Shown here one piece after another: positions 56,601-62,600 of a DNA stretch of 64,000 nucleotides. Numbering within the stretch: the stretch's first letter is position 1; each line of letters begins with the position of its first letter. The stretch is taken from the NCBI RefSeq assembly GCF_044324875.1, contig NZ_CP172185.1. One strand, written 5' to 3'. This DNA is from Escherichia coli (lineage in GTDB: Bacteria; Pseudomonadota; Gammaproteobacteria; Enterobacterales; Enterobacteriaceae). The position numbers were made by a program.

Positions 56601-59600
56601 GATGACCATAAAACAGCACAATGACGCCCAGCCCAAGCCAGAACGCAGGTGTGGAGATTCCGGTAATGGCCATTATTCGCACCAGATGATCCAGCCAGCG
56701 ATTTCGCCAGACTGCAGAGAGTATGCCCAGCGGGATGCCAATCAGGAGTGCCAGCAGCAGGGCACAAAAAGCCAGTTCCAGCGTCGCCGGGAAAAATATA
56801 CGCAACTCTTCCAGCACCGGACGCCCGGTACGAATGGATGTTCCCAGGTCACCCTGAAACAGGTCGCTGACGTAGCGGTAAAACTGTACGTACAGTGGCT
56901 GGTCCAGTCCCAGTTGCTGGCGAATATTATCCACGATAGCATCGCTGGCGCGGTCACCCGCCAGTAACCGCGCCGGATCGCCGGGGATCAGGTGCGAGAT
57001 AATAAACGTTATCACACAGACGCCCGCCACCACGAGCACCAGCCCCCAGCAGCGTTGGCGTAAAATACTCCAGAAGGTCACGTTATTTACTCATGGTATT
57101 GATATTGAAGACCTGTTCCAGCATGGGATTGAACACAAAACCTTTCACCTCTTTGTTCATCGCCAGTTGGTAGTTTTTCTGGAACAGGTACACATAAGCA
57201 GCGTCATCAATGACGATTTTCTGTGCCTGCTGGTAGTCCCGAGTACGCTGCGTCTGGTCGGTGGTCGCTAGCGCATTGCGCAGTAACTTATCGACCTCAC
57301 TGTTTTCATAGAACGAGCGGTTACCCGGCAGACCTTTTTTGTCTGACTCAAACCAGTAATTCATAAACATATACGGGTCGGCAAAATCCGGACTCCAGTT
57401 GCCAATCGCAATGTCATAATCACCTTTTCCCACTCTGTCGCGCATGGTGGCGTTCGCCAGCTTTTCCAGCTTCACGTTGATGCCCAGCTTGTTGAGACTG
57501 GATTGTGTCGCCAGAGCAATAGGCTCCCAGTTCGGATCATTATCAGAATAGAGAAACGTCAGGCTGGTGGGTTTGCTCGTCACTTTATCCCATTCGGCTT
57601 TGGCTTTCGTTTCGTCATGGTTGTATTGCATTGCCGTCGCATCGTATCCCCACATGCCTTCCGGAATCGGGCCGCGCATTTGTTTTCCGTTACCACTCAG
57701 AATGCCGTTAACCATACCCTGATAATCGGTAGACCAGGAAATGGCCCGACGCAGATCCGCCTGATTAAGTGGCGCTTTGCTGTTATTCAGATACAGATAG
57801 GTGACGCGCAGTGACGGATACTCTGCCACATTGACTTTGTTTTCCTGCTTCAGTGCGTTGAGTTGATCCACCGGCAGCGCATCGGCAATGTCAATGTCGC
57901 CACGGGAGAGCTGCAGGCGACGGGAAGCACTTTCACCGATAATTTTTACCGATACCCGTTTGAAATTCGGTTTATTGCCGGGGTAATGCGGATTTGGCAC
58001 CAGAACTAATTGCTGACCTTTTTGCCAGCTTTTCAGCATAAACGGTCCGGAGCCAGCGGTATTTTGCGCGAGGAAACCACGTGCATCATCCGCCGCATGC
58101 TCCTTTAAGACCGCCGGATTGATAATGGATGCACCGTCATTCGCCAGCGTGTAGAGGAACGGTGCGAATGGCTGGCTAAGGGTAAACCTCACTGTATGTT
58201 CGTCGGGAGCATCAATCTTTAAATCTTTGGGAAATGCTTCTGCTGGCCCCTGGCCGATTTTTAGTAACCGCTCAAAAGAGAGTTTTACTGCTTCGGCAGT
58301 GACAGGAGTGCCATCGGCAAATTTAGCATTATCCTTCAGGGTGAATGTCCACTCTTTTTGATCGTCAGACGCTTTCCAGCTACTCGCCAGATCGCCTTCA
58401 ACGTCGGTTGAGCCTTTATCACCGTCCGTTTTGTACTGAACCAGTCGCTGATAAGACGGGTAGGTCACTGTCCAGTCGTTATTATCAATTGTCACCGCTG
58501 GGTCGAGGGTTTGTGGGTCGGCAGCTTTACCGATCACCAGCATATCTTTCGGTACGGCGGCGTGCGCAACCGGCATTGTTGTGGCAAGGACGATCGCGAG
58601 CAATGTAGGACGAAACAAAATCGATCTCTTCATGACAGTTTCCTGATTAACTGGCGTGCTGTGTGCCAGGGGATATAAAACAGGTGAATTGATCAGCGAG
58701 TAGTGGGTAACTCGCTGCCTGGGGTAATTCGAAGTGCCACCATTCGCTCGGGATACCGACAAAGCCACCGCCAGTCATAATCGCATTCAGCAACAGCCGA
58801 TTGCGCTGAGCGGCGGGCGGGACGGAAGGGTGATAAGCATGGGAACGTTCGTGCATTTCATCGAACTCTGCACCCATATCCAGGATGTTCCCGTGCTCAT
58901 CACGAAGCGTCAGGTCGATCGCCGTGCCACGGCTGTGATTAGAACCGACCGTCACATCAACAACATATTGCGGGTCTGGGCAGGTTTGCCACAACATCGC
59001 CTGTGCTTGTTGTGGGCGATACGCATCGTAAATCACCAGTTGTAAGCCTGACAGCTGGGCGATACTGATACTTTTCGCCAGCGCAGTAATCGCATCCTTG
59101 TGTAACAGACAACGCGCTTGCTGATAAATAGCTTTGCCTGTGATGTTATCAGCGCAGGCGTATTTCAGTTCGATCTCCAGATCAGGGAAGATCACGGCTA
59201 AATCAACCAGTTCGGTGGTATCCGACATAAACGGTTCCTGTATAAGACAAAAATTGCTGCGCTTTCCGCTTATGCAGATCTCATGCCATGCCGGGATAAG
59301 CGCCAGAATGCTGGCTTAAAGTTATATTTTTTAACTTTTGATCAACATTTGTGCAGCGTAGTGCAGTTTTGGTGCAAGAGGGGAAGTTAAGGAAGGAATC
59401 TCCCGGAATCGTAGCTGAAATCACAGTATTTAAGTGACAGTGTCACTTTAAAGGAAAACCCGCGAGTGCGGGCGAGAGGAATTTGTCAGATTTTCAGCGG
59501 TAACACACTGCTCATCCAGCCTGGAATTTCTTCGGCGGGCAGGGGGCGGGAAAAGAAATATCCCTGAATAACGCGACAGTGGATCTTGCGTAGCATCTCA

Positions 59601-62600
59601 AATTGCTCTTTGGTTTCGACGCCTTCCGCCACGACGGTTAAATTAAGGCTTTGCCCAATGCTGGTAATGGCTTCAAGTAAGGCAAGGATGCGTTTTTCGG
59701 TCAGACAACGATCGACAAAACTTTTGTCAATTTTGATTTCCGTTACCGGAAGACTGACTAAGCGGGATAATCCGGAAAAGCCCGTGCCAAAATCATCTAC
59801 CGATAAACCCACGCCCATATCGCGCAGGATCTGAATGCGCTTAAAGATTTCGGTATCGTGTTCCATCATCATGCTTTCCGTGATTTCCACCGTCAGCTGG
59901 TGGCCGTCAATACCCCAGGCGTGCATTGCATCAGACACCTGATTAGGCAGTTGATTACTGCGAAAGTGCAGCGCCGACAAGTTAACGGATAACGCCGGGA
60001 TATGAATATTCTGGCTACGCCATTCTGCTAACTGACGGCAAGCTTCCGCGATGACCCAGCGCCCAATATTTTCGATTTCACCGATCTCTTCTGCGAGAGG
60101 AATAAACCGTGAAGGGGGCACATGACCATGCAGGGGATCGTGCCAGCGAGCAAGGGCTTCGATGCCGTACAGTTCACCCGTTTCTGCGAAGATTTGCGGC
60201 TGGTAAACCAGTTTCAGTTGGTTATTGCTAATTGCTTCTTTCAGCGCCGCGCCTAAAACCAAACGCTCTTTTACCATTTCGTTCATCGCCGGGCTGAAGA
60301 ACTGCCAGCCGTTACCGCCATTTTTGCGAATAAAATCCATTGCATTGTGAGCAGTGGAGAGCAGGTAATCGCGGTTTTTACCCACGTCGTAGCTGATGCC
60401 AATGCTCAAGGTGAGCGGGAATGGCTTATCGTCAATCATTATCGGCTTGCTGACCACATTCCGTAGCTCATCGGCGATTTGCGTAATGTTACTGACGTCG
60501 TTTTCCAGGCTCACGAGGACAAACTGCGTACCTTCGATACGACAGAGATATTGATCCGGTTTGAGTTTTTCACGAAAGCGATTGACCACTTCCAGCAATG
60601 CCTGATCGGCCCACGCATAGCCAAGGCTATCAATCACATCCTGAATATGGTCAACACTGATGAGATAGACCACCGGAGAGACGGCTTTGTCGACCAGGTC
60701 ATCGAGGTAATTGTGCAGGTTATTGCGATTTGGCAGACCGGTCATCGGATCAAATTGGATGAGTTGTTCAATATGCTGACGGCTTTTTTCCTGTTCCAGC
60801 GCCAGCGCGGCCATATGCTGGCTGATATCTGCCACGCGTTCGATAAAGGCGCTGGTTTCTGCTCCTGACGAGGTTTTAATTTGCAGGATCCCCGCAGGCG
60901 CACCATCACGCTGACGAATGGTCGCTGACCAGCTTTGCGCATTTTGAACTTCTGCACCGTGCGAAGATGACGCCCAGTGTATCGGCATCCCGTTGCGCAG
61001 CGCGAACAGCGAAACATGCGATTCGTTGAGTACAGATTCGATGTTACGACAAATGATTTCCCCCATTTCATGAAATGGCGGGCTGCTGCACATGGCGGCG
61101 AGAATATTGCCTTCAAGCTGGCGGATTTGCCGTTCTTCGGTGATATCCGAGAAGGTCATTACCAGGTTCTGCAGATGCGCGAGCACGTCATAAACCGGGC
61201 TGATAGAGGCTTTAATCCAGATTTTTTCACCGGTGCGCGTCAATAGCAGAAATTCGTCCTGATCGCGGGCGGTTTTCCAAAGCAACTGTTGTAAACGAAT
61301 GCGGTTATCGGCAGGGAATTCAGGAATGTTCAGGAGTGAATCGGGCTGCATACCGCTGGCTTCGCTAATGCAGTAACCAAACATTTCGGTAAATGCGCGA
61401 TTGCACTGCACAATATGGCGTTCCGGATCGAGGACAATCACCGGTCGGTCGAGATGGTCAACGGCAATAATCAATTGTCGGGTCTGTTCTTTTTGCGCCA
61501 TTTCTACGCTGGCATCCCGTACCAGCGCCAGGTAATAAATTTTACCCTCGGCGCTCACTTTCGATAGCGCAAAACGGGTCCAGATTTTACTGCCGTCTTT
61601 TTTCTCCAGCTGCAGCTCCCGACTCATCCCCTCGACGCGCGCTTTACCGCCTTCACGGTTGTGACGGATGTATTCAGGATGCGCGGGACGCAAATCCCGT
61701 GGAATCAGCATATCAATGTTATTGCCAATGACTTCTTCACGTTTGTACCCCCAGAGCTTCTCTGCGGCGGGGTTGAAAAACATCACTTCATCATTTTCGT
61801 TAATTAACACCGCGCCCATCATATGGCCCACTTCGGCTATGCCGCTAAAATAATGTCGACCTTTATGGTTAAACCACAGGCCAAAATCAGCCTGGCTTAA
61901 AGGCAAACTACTGCCTAAATCAGAATCCAGCAGGACTTTATAGATAATATCTATTTCCCATGAAAGTAATGAGGCTATTTGCCGTTCTTTTTCTTCTTCG
62001 GCATTTTCCAGTAACGAGAAGATACGATAGTTTTCATCTTCCTTTGAGGCACTACTGTCACTAAAGGTAAACGCGCGGGTCATCACTTCCATAGCGATAT
62101 CAATACTGTTAATAGAGAAATGGTAGACCTGAAGTTTTTCTGCGGCGGAATAATCCGAAGAGAAGATGACTGGATAGAGGATTTTTTTCAGCACCCGAAA
62201 CCCCATCTCGACAATTTCTACCGGAATTCCTATGCGGGCATGCACTTCCGCGACGGTATGCTGGATTTGTATTAGCCTTTCGACATCGTCAACCTGGGCA
62301 GAAAGCACGTTAATAATCCAGCGTTCCATCGCACTTTTCAACTGCCGCTCAACTTGTTCATTACTCAAGAATTCTTCGGCATGCGGGTCGATACGGACAA
62401 TTCGGTAAAACTCAATACTCAGATAATGGGCATGCGCAACGGCAATTTCCGCGGCTTTAGCACGAATGAGCGGATCTGCTTGTTCGACAAGCCCGGTCCA
62501 CTCATCTTTCATTCTTTTAAAATACATCTCCATAATTCACACCCTTATAAGGCTGGGAAAGCAGACGGAATCAAAACGAAACGCAACGTGCGAGGTCGAC

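What the first reader, a model, noticed from the sequence alone, without database searches (positions are those of the whole stretch)
59486..62533. dosC and dosP are joined into one 1015-aa gene: globin sensor fused to the heme-PAS phosphodiesterase, cyclase domain missing
In the K-12 arrangement as I recall it, dosC (globin-coupled diguanylate cyclase, 460 aa) and dosP (heme-PAS c-di-GMP phosphodiesterase, 799 aa) are separate co-transcribed genes. Here one continuous frame encodes the DosC globin and part of its middle domain, with Tyr43 and His98 at the expected positions, joined at …SGIAEVGH|MMGAVLINENDEV… to DosP lacking its first ~21 residues. The DosC GGDEF domain is absent and the locus is ~750 bp shorter than expected, which fits one in-frame deletion. 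The product would carry two different heme oxygen-sensor domains on a single phosphodiesterase, and the cell would lose the paired cyclase. The junction coincides with a CATATG hexamer at 61820..61825.
Basis: partly seen in the sequence, partly recalled or inferred. Interest (0 to 1): 0.8.

Follow-up and report, generated by a model that had tools for sequence, protein, structure and literature searches.

The report
Natural in-frame DosC–DosP gene fusion
A real 759-bp in-frame deletion in one clonal E. coli lineage removes the oxygen-sensing cyclase's catalytic half and welds its globin sensor onto the partner phosphodiesterase; it is most likely one more accidental loss of dosC at a deletion-prone locus, not an evolved dual sensor.

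Summary
Window 59486..62533 (-) is one 1015-aa ORF. Residues 1-237 are identical to E. coli 042 DosC 1-237, and residues 238-1015 are identical to 042 DosP 22-799. Compared with 042, the locus differs only by a single 759-bp (253-codon) deletion with a 4-bp ATAT microhomology, which creates CATATG at 61820..61825.

It is not an assembly artefact. The exact protein is already in NCBI, named only 'oxygen-sensing cyclic-di-GMP phosphodiesterase', and is encoded on at least 24 contigs from independent NCBI and Logan assemblies. Their flanks differ by 0-3 SNPs over 23 kb, so this is one clonal allele. None of 5,426 complete RefSeq E. coli genomes carries this junction.

The DosC cyclase domain and half of its middle (transducer) domain are gone. 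All DosP domains and heme ligands remain. However, DosP's ordered N-terminal cap (G12-N21) is lost, and the join sits directly beside M22 (called 'M30' in the DosP structure paper), a residue that is required for O2 binding and for switching the phosphodiesterase on.

The locus is deletion-prone: B2-type and Shigella dosC remnants exist, as do several singleton DosC-DosP and DosC-Ddp chimeras. The most likely reading is cyclase loss, with the phosphodiesterase kept alive by an in-frame join and the globin as a passenger. Function is untested. Interest is moderate to low.

The parts
59486..62533 (-). Complete dosC'-'dosP fusion ORF (1015 aa plus stop)
   Evidence: ORF listing. It equals DosC 1-237 plus DosP 22-799 of strain 042. 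The exact protein is in NCBI and Logan as P0001.
62054..62533 (-). DosC sensor globin domain (about residues 1-160), with distal Tyr43 and proximal His98
   Evidence: Pfam Protoglobin 27-155. PDB 4ZVA/4ZVB DosC globin match, E=1e-100. Y43/H98 present. AF2 pLDDT 70-94.
61823..62017 (-). Truncated DosC middle (CZB-like) domain, residues 173-237: helices A and B only, helices C and D deleted
   Evidence: Pfam DosC_2nd matches model positions 1-70 of 110. PDB 4ZVC (residues 173-298) matches only its first ~65 residues. Helix B is 216-228 (PMC5549716). Helices at 232-254 and 262-294 appear in the wild-type control model.
61820..61825 (.). Deletion junction: CATATG, made by joining dosC ...CATAT to dosP ATATG... 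across the shared ATAT (61821-61824); codons H237|M238
   Evidence: Exact-match extension from both flanks against 042 overlaps by 4 bp; 759 bp deleted (L001 2381-3139). Sequence read.
61499..61822 (-). DosP heme-PAS (hPAS) domain starting at M22 (fusion M238), lacking DosP residues 1-21 including the ordered N-cap G12-N21; heme ligands H285 and M303, plus R305
   Evidence: Pfam PAS 241-340. PDB 1V9Y/1S66/9CDR matches. Residue check. AF2 pLDDT 66-88.
61127..61462 (-). DosP second PAS (PAS-PAC) domain, fusion residues 358-469
   Evidence: Pfam PAS_9, PAS_4 and PAS hits at 358-469; 100% identical to 042 DosP.
60311..60754 (-). DosP degenerate GGDEF domain (EGTQF at residue 667), catalytically silent
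   Evidence: Pfam GGDEF 594-741. EGTQF motif located. Described as a silent cyclase in PMC11543664.
59543..60247 (-). DosP EAL c-di-GMP phosphodiesterase domain, residues 763-997 (EAL at 792, DDFGTG at 913)
   Evidence: Pfam EAL, E=3.8e-69, full-length model match. Motifs located.
62534..62908 (-). Native dosC upstream region (promoter and RBS), which now drives the fusion
   Evidence: 100% identical to 042 from the junction up to the window end (L001 201-2380 aligns to window 64000-61821 with 0 mismatches).
59458..59473 (-). Terminator-like hairpin just after the stop codon (the native dosP 3' end)
   Evidence: Consensus scan only.

Best explanation
A spontaneous microhomology-mediated deletion of 759 bp (ATAT/ATAT) occurred in the dosCP operon of one E. 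coli lineage and has been inherited clonally.

It removes DosC residues 238-460 (helices C and D of the middle domain plus the whole GGDEF cyclase domain), the stop codon, the 24-bp spacer containing dosP's own ribosome-binding site and start codon, and DosP residues 1-21.

Because the deletion is a multiple of three, translation that starts at the dosC start codon runs into the DosP body. This gives a 1015-aa protein with the domain order globin, half middle domain, heme-PAS, PAS-PAC, silent GGDEF, EAL.

Shown: the structure of the allele, its presence in many independent assemblies, loss of the DosC cyclase at this locus, and retention of every DosP domain and catalytic or heme residue.

Inferred: the net effect is a dgcO (dosC) null that keeps a PdeO-type phosphodiesterase expressed from the dosC promoter and RBS. 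The in-frame join is what kept the phosphodiesterase translatable. The globin is probably a heme-binding passenger tethered by the remnant of a broken transducer, not a regulator.
For: - Single 759-bp in-frame gap with 4-bp microhomology, otherwise 100% identical to 042. Microhomology of 4 bp or more is expected in only 1.9% of random joins.
- The exact protein has 4 or more NCBI accessions and sits on at least 24 contigs read (47 index blocks) from NCBI and Logan assemblies. Flanks differ by 0-3 SNPs over 13-23 kb.
- Domain content comes from Pfam and PDB matches.
- Loss of dosC is common and tolerated. About 1,160 of 5,408 complete genomes that match the locus do not cover 80% of it. The B2 type strain keeps only a 165-bp dosC remnant. 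S. sonnei and S. flexneri have truncated forms. [quoted passage not shown]
- Other sporadic chimeras start with the same globin: three more DosC-DosP fusions, plus DosC-DdpX, -DdpA, -DdpB/C and -DdpD/F fusions.
- The nearest complete genomes have intact dosC and dosP.
- M30A (= M22A) gives low O2 affinity and weak, unstimulatable PDE activity (PMC11543664). The numbering offset was verified.
- His223 and Lys224 in middle-domain helix B are needed to activate the DosC output (PMC5549716), so the middle domain is a working transducer, and here it is cut in half.
Against: - No expression, heme or activity data exist for this protein.
- M22 itself is retained, and N-terminal extensions of DosP (8 extra residues, MBP) are tolerated in vitro, so the phosphodiesterase might be fully normal.
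- The allele has persisted long enough to pick up a few SNPs and be sampled dozens of times. That is compatible with neutrality but also with benefit.
- Among the DosC-DosP fusions found, this is the only one that keeps all DosP domains and the only non-singleton. This could hint at selection for a working product.
- DosC and DosP natively form a complex, and both are dimers, so a globin dimer sitting on the hPAS dimer is sterically conceivable.
Confidence: 0.75

Rival explanations
1. The fusion is a functional, selected dual-heme oxygen sensor. The globin (high O2 affinity) and the heme-PAS (lower affinity) jointly tune one EAL phosphodiesterase. This turns a two-protein push-pull system into a single wide-range O2-responsive c-di-GMP degrader.
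For: - Both heme domains are intact with their ligand residues.
- Natural globin-coupled phosphodiesterases exist, namely DcpG (globin-GGDEF-EAL) and the V. fluvialis GCS-HD-GYP (PMC10882959).
- The allele is inherited in a lineage sampled at least 24 times, and it is the only fusion that keeps all DosP domains.
- DosC Kd(O2) is about 20 uM, and the two proteins natively work together (PMC11543664).
Against: - Helices C and D of the DosC transducer domain are missing.
- There is one junction and one clone, with no independent recurrence. None of 5,426 complete genomes and no JGI metagenome contig carries it.
- The locus produces many obviously accidental chimeras.
- The join damages the hPAS N-cap next to M22/'M30'.
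Confidence: 0.1
2. The fusion protein is non-functional or unstable, so the lineage is effectively a dosC dosP double null. The half four-helix bundle exposes hydrophobic surface, and loss of the hPAS N-cap breaks the hPAS dimer interface, locking the enzyme OFF or leading to its degradation.
For: - Disturbing the hPAS dimer contact of M30 (= M22) extinguishes activity, even with CO bound (PMC11543664).
- The ordered segment G12-N21 immediately before it is deleted and replaced by foreign sequence.
- The middle domain is cut mid-bundle.
- dosP is also inactivated in some natural isolates (internal stop in HH45; stop codon in strain B-11870).
Against: - M22 itself and the whole hPAS core are retained. 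AF2 still folds the hPAS confidently.
- The 3-kb ORF has stayed intact in all carriers read, although the lineage is too young for this to be a strong argument.
- N-terminal fusions such as MBP-DosP are soluble and can be purified.
Confidence: 0.25
3. Assembly artefact: the 759 bp are present in the genome but were collapsed by the assembler.
For: The window comes from a single assembly of unknown quality.
Against: - The same junction and the same 1015-aa product appear in independent NCBI assemblies (GCA_016679215.1, GCA_040438525.1) and Logan assemblies of separate runs (SRR31121844, SRR31140454, and others), at least 24 contigs in all.
- The breakpoints share only 4 bp, and no longer repeat links the two sites.
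Confidence: 0.01
4. Engineered construct: the CATATG (NdeI) site at the join is a cloning scar.
For: CATATG lies exactly at the junction.
Against: - The hexamer arises automatically from joining the native ...CATAT (dosC) to the native ATATG... (dosP) across the shared ATAT. No foreign bases are present.
- The locus lies in its normal chromosomal context in many surveillance-type assemblies.
Confidence: 0.01

Closest known systems
E. coli DosC (DgcO/YddV) plus DosP (PdeO/YddU/EcDOS), the two-gene dosCP oxygen-sensing c-di-GMP module
   Same: The fusion is made entirely of these two proteins: 100% identical to strain 042 DosC 1-237 and DosP 22-799, with the same promoter region, chromosomal neighbours (digH, ddpX) and terminator.
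   Different: There is one polypeptide instead of two. It lacks the GGDEF cyclase, helices C and D of the middle domain, DosP residues 1-21, and the independent dosP translation start.
Natural dosC-loss alleles: the B2-type dosC remnant (e.g. ATCC 11775) and the Shigella flexneri/sonnei truncated dgcO
   Same: The same locus loses the DosC cyclase by deletion while dosP is kept. B2 breakpoints (L001 2308 and 2355) lie 25-72 bp from this allele's left breakpoint at 2380.
   Different: Those alleles leave a dead dosC fragment and an independent, full-length dosP. Here the globin is kept, translated and covalently attached to DosP.
Other sporadic DosC-DosP in-frame chimeras in public assemblies (P0002 539 aa, P0006 592 aa, P0108 544 aa)
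   Same: They start with the same DosC globin and read into DosP after a deletion.
   Different: They have larger deletions (about 2.0-2.2 kb), 0-1 bp of microhomology, and lose the hPAS (and more) of DosP. Each is seen in one or two contigs only. The window's allele keeps all DosP domains and is seen on at least 24 contigs.
DcpG of Paenibacillus dendritiformis (globin-GGDEF-EAL) and the Vibrio fluvialis GCS-HD-GYP, which are evolved globin-coupled c-di-GMP phosphodiesterases
   Same: An N-terminal sensor globin sits on a c-di-GMP phosphodiesterase output. In those proteins the Fe(II)-O2 form activates hydrolysis (PMC10882959).
   Different: Those are conserved, evolved architectures with a native linker and no second heme domain. 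Here the linker is a broken DosC middle domain, and a heme-PAS lies between the globin and the output. No homology-based membership was tested.

Membership tests
DosP/PdeO heme-PAS EAL phosphodiesterase | Heme-binding PAS with proximal His77 and distal Met95/Arg97 (literature numbering) | tested here: met
   H285, M303 and R305 are present. The hPAS is 100% identical to 042 DosP from M22 onward. PDB 1V9Y/1S66/9CDR matches.
DosP/PdeO heme-PAS EAL phosphodiesterase | PAS-PAC, silent EGTQF GGDEF-like domain, and a complete EAL catalytic domain | tested here: met
   Pfam PAS 358-469, GGDEF 594-741 and EAL 763-997 (E=3.8e-69, model positions 3-236 of 236). EGTQF, EAL and DDFGTG motifs located.
DosP/PdeO heme-PAS EAL phosphodiesterase | Native N-terminus, including the ordered N-cap (G12-N21) at the hPAS dimer tip | tested here: not met
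   Residues 1-21 are deleted. The sequences deposited for 9CMF/9CLO begin at G12, so that segment is taken as ordered (an inference from the deposited sequence). The neighbouring M22/'M30' is functionally essential.
DosP/PdeO heme-PAS EAL phosphodiesterase | O2-stimulated c-di-GMP hydrolysis | not testable with these tools
   This needs purified protein and aerobic/anaerobic assays.
DosC/DgcO globin-coupled diguanylate cyclase | Sensor globin with Tyr43 and His98 | tested here: met
   Pfam Protoglobin. PDB 4ZVA/4ZVB match, E=1e-100. Residues confirmed.
DosC/DgcO globin-coupled diguanylate cyclase | Complete middle (CZB-like) transducer domain, residues 173-298 | tested here: not met
   Only Pfam DosC_2nd model positions 1-70 of 110 match, and only the first ~65 of 126 residues of PDB 4ZVC.
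DosC/DgcO globin-coupled diguanylate cyclase | Catalytic GGDEF domain with a GGDEF active site | tested here: not met
   DosC residues 238-460, including RYGGDEF at 372, are deleted. The only GGDEF-fold domain left is DosP's EGTQF.
Evolved globin-coupled c-di-GMP phosphodiesterases (DcpG type, GCS-HD-GYP type) | Sensor globin and phosphodiesterase output on one chain | tested here: met
   Protoglobin and EAL are on one ORF.
Evolved globin-coupled c-di-GMP phosphodiesterases (DcpG type, GCS-HD-GYP type) | Architecture conserved across species or lineages (evidence of selection for the linkage) | tested here: not met
   The junction is found only in one near-clonal set of E. coli contigs. It is absent from 5,426 complete genomes and from JGI metagenome contigs. 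In the listed part of the homolog search (best 120 of 356 hits), every Protoglobin+EAL protein was an E. coli deletion product.
Evolved globin-coupled c-di-GMP phosphodiesterases (DcpG type, GCS-HD-GYP type) | Globin ligand state controls phosphodiesterase activity | not testable with these tools
   This needs biochemistry. The AF2 attempt to judge the linker was inconclusive.

The most novel reading that the evidence does not exclude
The lineage carries a working protein with two chemically different heme O2 sensors in series: a 5-coordinate globin and a His/Met 6-coordinate PAS. The globin dimer docks on the hPAS dimer tip and replaces the lost N-cap, so that globin ligation gates the M22-mediated ON-state. 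This would give a single-chain, wide-range O2/NO/CO-responsive c-di-GMP phosphodiesterase that was selected in this clone.
Probability: 0.1. Interest if true: 0.6.

Novelty: new variant of a known kind. Interest (0 to 1): 0.35.

Why it matters
If the fusion is merely a dosC-loss allele, it adds one more well-resolved example to a known pattern: E. coli and Shigella lineages repeatedly discard the oxygen-sensing cyclase DgcO while keeping the phosphodiesterase. It also shows that automated annotation hides such events, because the protein is named simply DosP.

It does have practical value as a ready-made natural construct. It tethers the DosC globin to the exact spot on DosP (the hPAS dimer tip next to M22/'M30') that recent cryo-EM work identified as the switch for the ON-state. 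Comparing it with wild-type DosP and with DosP lacking residues 1-21 would test how tolerant that switch is. It would also test whether a foreign heme domain can take control of the 180-angstrom allosteric relay. For the carrier lineage, the predicted phenotype is lower local c-di-GMP in stationary phase or low oxygen, with effects on PNAG, curli and swarming.

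Tried and rejected
1. Alignment A1: MAFFT placed the PAS fragments on the globin region (checked). I discarded it and rebuilt it as A2 with full-length chimeric rows.

2. AF2 of fusion residues 1-365 gave pLDDT below 50 for the middle-domain stub at 161-237, and I first read this as 'disordered tether'. 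The control on wild-type DosC 1-300, with an intact middle domain and similar alignment depth, was equally poor over 159-233. The result therefore says nothing about truncation, and I withdrew that inference.

3. The representative-library search with the hPAS was dominated by giant multi-PAS proteins. It gave no information on architecture and served only as a source of PAS fragments.

4. PMC12089661 looked like a lead on dosP variation. It concerns a plasmid-borne dosP copy co-amplified with blaTEM-1 by IS26, and its chromosomal dosCP is unchanged, so it is irrelevant here.

5. A literature search for a described DosC-DosP fusion found nothing relevant. The library is incomplete, so this is weak evidence.

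6. An exact 40-nt junction scan of JGI metagenome contigs found no hits.

7. The sigma-70 promoter scan is uninformative (1 hit against 5.4 expected), and from my own knowledge dosCP is sigma-S dependent.

8. A repeat and hairpin search around the breakpoints found nothing longer than chance-level 10-16-nt matches, and nothing linking 2380 to 3139. No structural cause for the breakpoint clustering was found.

9. The NdeI-site cloning-scar idea is rejected, because CATATG is generated by the native flanking bases.

10. I could not determine the sequence type or serotype of the carriers. The window has no MLST loci and no sample metadata are available. The best complete-genome matches to the flanks are only 98-99.5% identical.

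Full report
**What is there.** Window 59486..62533 on the minus strand is a single ATG-initiated ORF of 1015 codons. I compared it with the dosCP locus of E. coli 042 (NC_017626.1). There, dosC (460 aa) and dosP (799 aa) are separate genes 24 bp apart, lying between digH and ddpX. The window stretch 59300-62700 is 100% identical to that locus except for one gap of exactly 759 bp. Extending exact matches from both sides gives an overlap of 4 bp (ATAT, window 61821-61824). The deletion therefore removed L001 2381-3139 (equivalently 2377-3135) between two ATAT tetramers. The join of dosC ...GGCCATAT to dosP ATATGATGGGC... creates CATATG at 61820..61825. At the protein level, residues 1-237 equal 042 DosC 1-237 and residues 238-1015 equal 042 DosP 22-799, with no other difference.

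**Not chance and not an artefact.** A 3-kb ORF identical to two known proteins cannot arise by chance. The join itself is also non-random: among 20,000 random dosC/dosP breakpoint pairs, only 1.9% share 4 bp or more. This fits slipped-strand or illegitimate recombination at microhomology. Assembly collapse is excluded on two grounds. First, the breakpoints share only 4 bp, and no longer repeat connects them. Second, the identical 1015-aa protein is already in the public collection as P0001. It has NCBI accessions EHS0462121.1, EII4856014.1, EIQ9234190.1 and EIX4565056.1 and is named 'oxygen-sensing cyclic-di-GMP phosphodiesterase'. It is encoded on at least 24 contigs that were read (the index lists 47 blocks), from independent NCBI assemblies (GCA_016679215.1, GCA_040438525.1) and Logan assemblies of separate runs (SRR31121844, SRR31140454 and others). 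These contigs match the window over 11-14.5 kb with 0-2 mismatches, and each other over 13-23 kb with 0-3 mismatches. This is one allele inherited in a near-clonal lineage with a little later microevolution. The CATATG is not a cloning scar, because it is built entirely from native flanking bases.

**How common is it?** None of 5,426 complete RefSeq E. coli genomes has the junction as one piece. The best hits to a 131-nt junction probe are all two-piece matches. A 40-nt exact junction scan of JGI metagenome contigs found nothing. The complete genomes closest to the window's flanks (042 and relatives, and SW070912) have intact dosC and dosP. The window's own lineage has no exact counterpart among complete genomes; flank matches are 98-99.5% identical with gaps.

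**Anatomy of the product.** Pfam finds the following domains:
- Protoglobin at 27-155.
- DosC_2nd (the CZB-like middle domain) at 180-251, matching only model positions 1-70 of 110.
- PAS at 241-340 and a second PAS at 358-469.
- A GGDEF-fold domain at 594-741.
- A complete EAL domain at 763-997 (E=3.8e-69).

The GGDEF-fold domain is DosP's silent EGTQF domain (motif at residue 667). The true DosC GGDEF (RYGGDEF at DosC residue 372) is deleted. PDB sequence matches agree. The DosC globin structures (4ZVA/4ZVB) are fully covered. The middle-domain structure 4ZVC (residues 173-298) is covered only for about its first 65 residues. DosP heme-PAS and full-length structures match from the junction onward. 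Published work places middle-domain helix B at 216-228, with a pi-helix at 221-225, and shows that His223 and Lys224 are required for output activation (PMC5549716). In my wild-type control model the next helices are at 232-254 and 262-294. The cut at residue 237 therefore leaves helices A and B and removes C and D, which is half of the transducer bundle.

**The DosP side of the junction.** The 2024 cryo-EM paper on full-length DosP uses a historical numbering that is UniProt +8. I verified this offset: PDB chain position 9 aligns to UniProt M1. The paper's M30 is therefore UniProt M22, which is exactly the first DosP residue retained (fusion M238). That paper reports three things (PMC11543664):
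- M30A has low O2 affinity and only weak phosphodiesterase activity, which neither air nor CO can stimulate.
- Disrupting this interface 'extinguishes' activity.

The sequences deposited for the best-resolved models (9CMF/9CLO) begin at G12 (GIFFPALEQN-MMG...). I take this to mean that G12-N21 is ordered in the native dimer (this is an inference from the deposited sequence). The deletion therefore removes about 11 flexible residues plus this ordered N-cap, and replaces them with ...HYFSGIAEVGH from the DosC middle domain. M22 itself, the heme ligands (H285, M303), R305 and the rest of the relay are untouched. N-terminal additions to DosP (8 extra residues, MBP) are tolerated in vitro. Removal of the cap has not, to my knowledge, been tested.

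**Structure prediction.** I predicted fusion residues 1-365 with AF2, using a 23-row alignment. A first alignment was misregistered and discarded. The globin (pLDDT 70-94) and hPAS (66-88) folded with confidence, while residues 161-237 scored below 50. The control, wild-type DosC 1-300 with a complete middle domain and a similar alignment, scored just as poorly over 159-233. The prediction therefore cannot tell a broken stub from a domain that AF2 simply models badly as a monomer; the crystal form is a dimer. I draw no conclusion from it beyond the fact that both heme domains remain foldable units.

**Context: a deletion-prone locus.**
- Of the 5,408 complete genomes that match the locus, only 4,245 cover 80% or more of it.
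- About 1,048 genomes, including the B2 type strain ATCC 11775, carry a different rearrangement. In ATCC 11775 only 47 bp of the middle-domain coding region (L001 2309-2355) and the last 165 bp of dosC survive, next to an intact dosP; the ddp operon is also missing there. Those breakpoints (2308 and 2355) lie only 25-72 bp from the left breakpoint here (2380). I found no repeat or hairpin that explains the clustering.
- A homolog search with the first 344 residues found many other E. coli ORFs that start with the same globin. They include truncated forms (280 aa in S. sonnei with 881 members, 381 aa in S. flexneri with 419 members) and chimeras with DdpX, DdpA, DdpB/C and DdpD/F.
- It also found three more in-frame DosC-DosP fusions: P0002 (DosC 1-~286 joined to the EAL domain), P0006 (DosC 1-~437 joined to mid-EAL) and P0108 (DosC 1-174 joined to mid-EGTQF). 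The DNA for P0006 and P0002 shows deletions of about 2.0-2.2 kb with 0-1 bp of microhomology, each in one or two contigs.
- The literature agrees. [quoted passage not shown]

**Most likely mechanism and consequence.**
- Shown: one microhomology-mediated deletion; clonal inheritance; loss of the DgcO catalytic domain at this locus; retention of the full DosP catalytic and sensory core; and an unchanged dosC upstream region, which now drives the fusion.
- Inferred: the deletion also removed dosP's own ribosome-binding site and start codon, so only an in-frame join to dosC could keep the DosP body translated. The in-frame outcome (one chance in three a priori) may thus have been filtered by selection for keeping the phosphodiesterase, or may simply be luck. 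The expected phenotype is that of a dgcO null that still makes a PdeO-type phosphodiesterase: lower local c-di-GMP in stationary phase or low O2. [quoted passage not shown]
- I consider the globin a heme-binding passenger, because its native transducer is cut in half.
- I consider O2 control of the phosphodiesterase likely to be perturbed, because the N-cap next to M22 is replaced.
- A substantial alternative (about 0.25) is that the protein is locked OFF or unstable, making the lineage an effective dosCP double null. A smaller one (about 0.1) is that the globin has gained regulatory control.

**Comparison with known systems.** The protein works like DosP and is made of DosP. It meets the DosP criteria for heme-PAS, PAS-PAC, EGTQF and EAL, but not the native N-terminus. 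It is not a DosC-type cyclase, because the middle domain is incomplete and the GGDEF is absent. It resembles the evolved globin-coupled phosphodiesterases (DcpG with globin-GGDEF-EAL, and the V. fluvialis GCS-HD-GYP; PMC10882959) only in having a globin and a phosphodiesterase on one chain. It lacks their conserved linkage and is not conserved beyond one clone. I found no paper describing this or any other DosC-DosP fusion, but the library is incomplete.

**Verdict.** The finding is real, precisely characterised and not an artefact. It is a lineage-specific structural variant of a very well known two-gene module, at a locus where dosC is lost again and again. It is already in the databases under a generic name. 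Its domain order, with two different heme sensors in series on one EAL enzyme, has not been described as far as I could find, so I rate it a new variant of a known kind. Without functional data, the parsimonious reading is accidental gene decay with a fortunate in-frame join. Interest is moderate to low (0.35). It would rise to about 0.6 if the globin proved to regulate the phosphodiesterase.

Noticed in passing
L003 (ATCC 11775) 2998-3208; L001 coordinates 2308, 2355 and 2380: The widespread B2-type dosC remnant comes from two deletions. Its inner breakpoints (L001 2308 and 2355) lie within 25-72 bp of this allele's left breakpoint (2380), all inside the coding region for DosC middle-domain helix B. 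No repeat or hairpin explaining this clustering was found.
   Followed up: partly
proteins P0008, P0010, P0015, P0016, P0021, P0032 (public assemblies, not the window): Several E. coli assemblies encode in-frame chimeras of the DosC N-terminus with the downstream genes DdpX, DdpA, DdpB/C or DdpD/F. This implies deletions of several kb that remove dosP entirely. P0010 is seen on 5 contigs.
   Followed up: no
window 15161-20750 and 22477-22965: A nest of insertion sequences lies downstream of a type VI secretion PAAR/VgrG pair (vgrG at about 11745-14150). It contains IS21 istA/istB apparently inserted into an IS66 tnpA, IS66 tnpC, an IS2 fragment and an ISAs1 fragment. This stretch is where the window diverges from the closest complete genome, SW070912.
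   Followed up: partly
L002 (strain HH45, NZ_CP116411.1) 2990-3000 and 3213-3260: The dos locus of this 'complete' genome has long C/G homopolymer runs at its deletion junctions, an internal stop in dosP and a frameshifted ddpX. This looks like poor consensus quality rather than biology.
   Followed up: no
output: The word-indexed homolog search did not return the query's own cluster (P0001) among its best hits, although the exact-sequence look-up shows that it is in the collection. Absence from that tool's list is therefore not proof of absence.
   Followed up: no
window 62468-62470 (DosC residue 22) and about 61537-61539 (fusion residue 332): There are two substitutions relative to the K-12-derived PDB sequences: DosC P22L (ADPLIRAK against ADPPIRAK) and DosP V116I (EGKIYY against EGKVYY). 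Both are shared with strain 042, so they are ordinary lineage polymorphisms.
   Followed up: yes
plasmid hits (5 places on plasmids); PMC12089661: dosP-like sequence occasionally sits on plasmids. One clinical isolate co-amplified a plasmid-borne dosP tenfold with blaTEM-1 via IS26. A second dos copy elsewhere in the window's genome cannot be excluded from the window alone.
   Followed up: no
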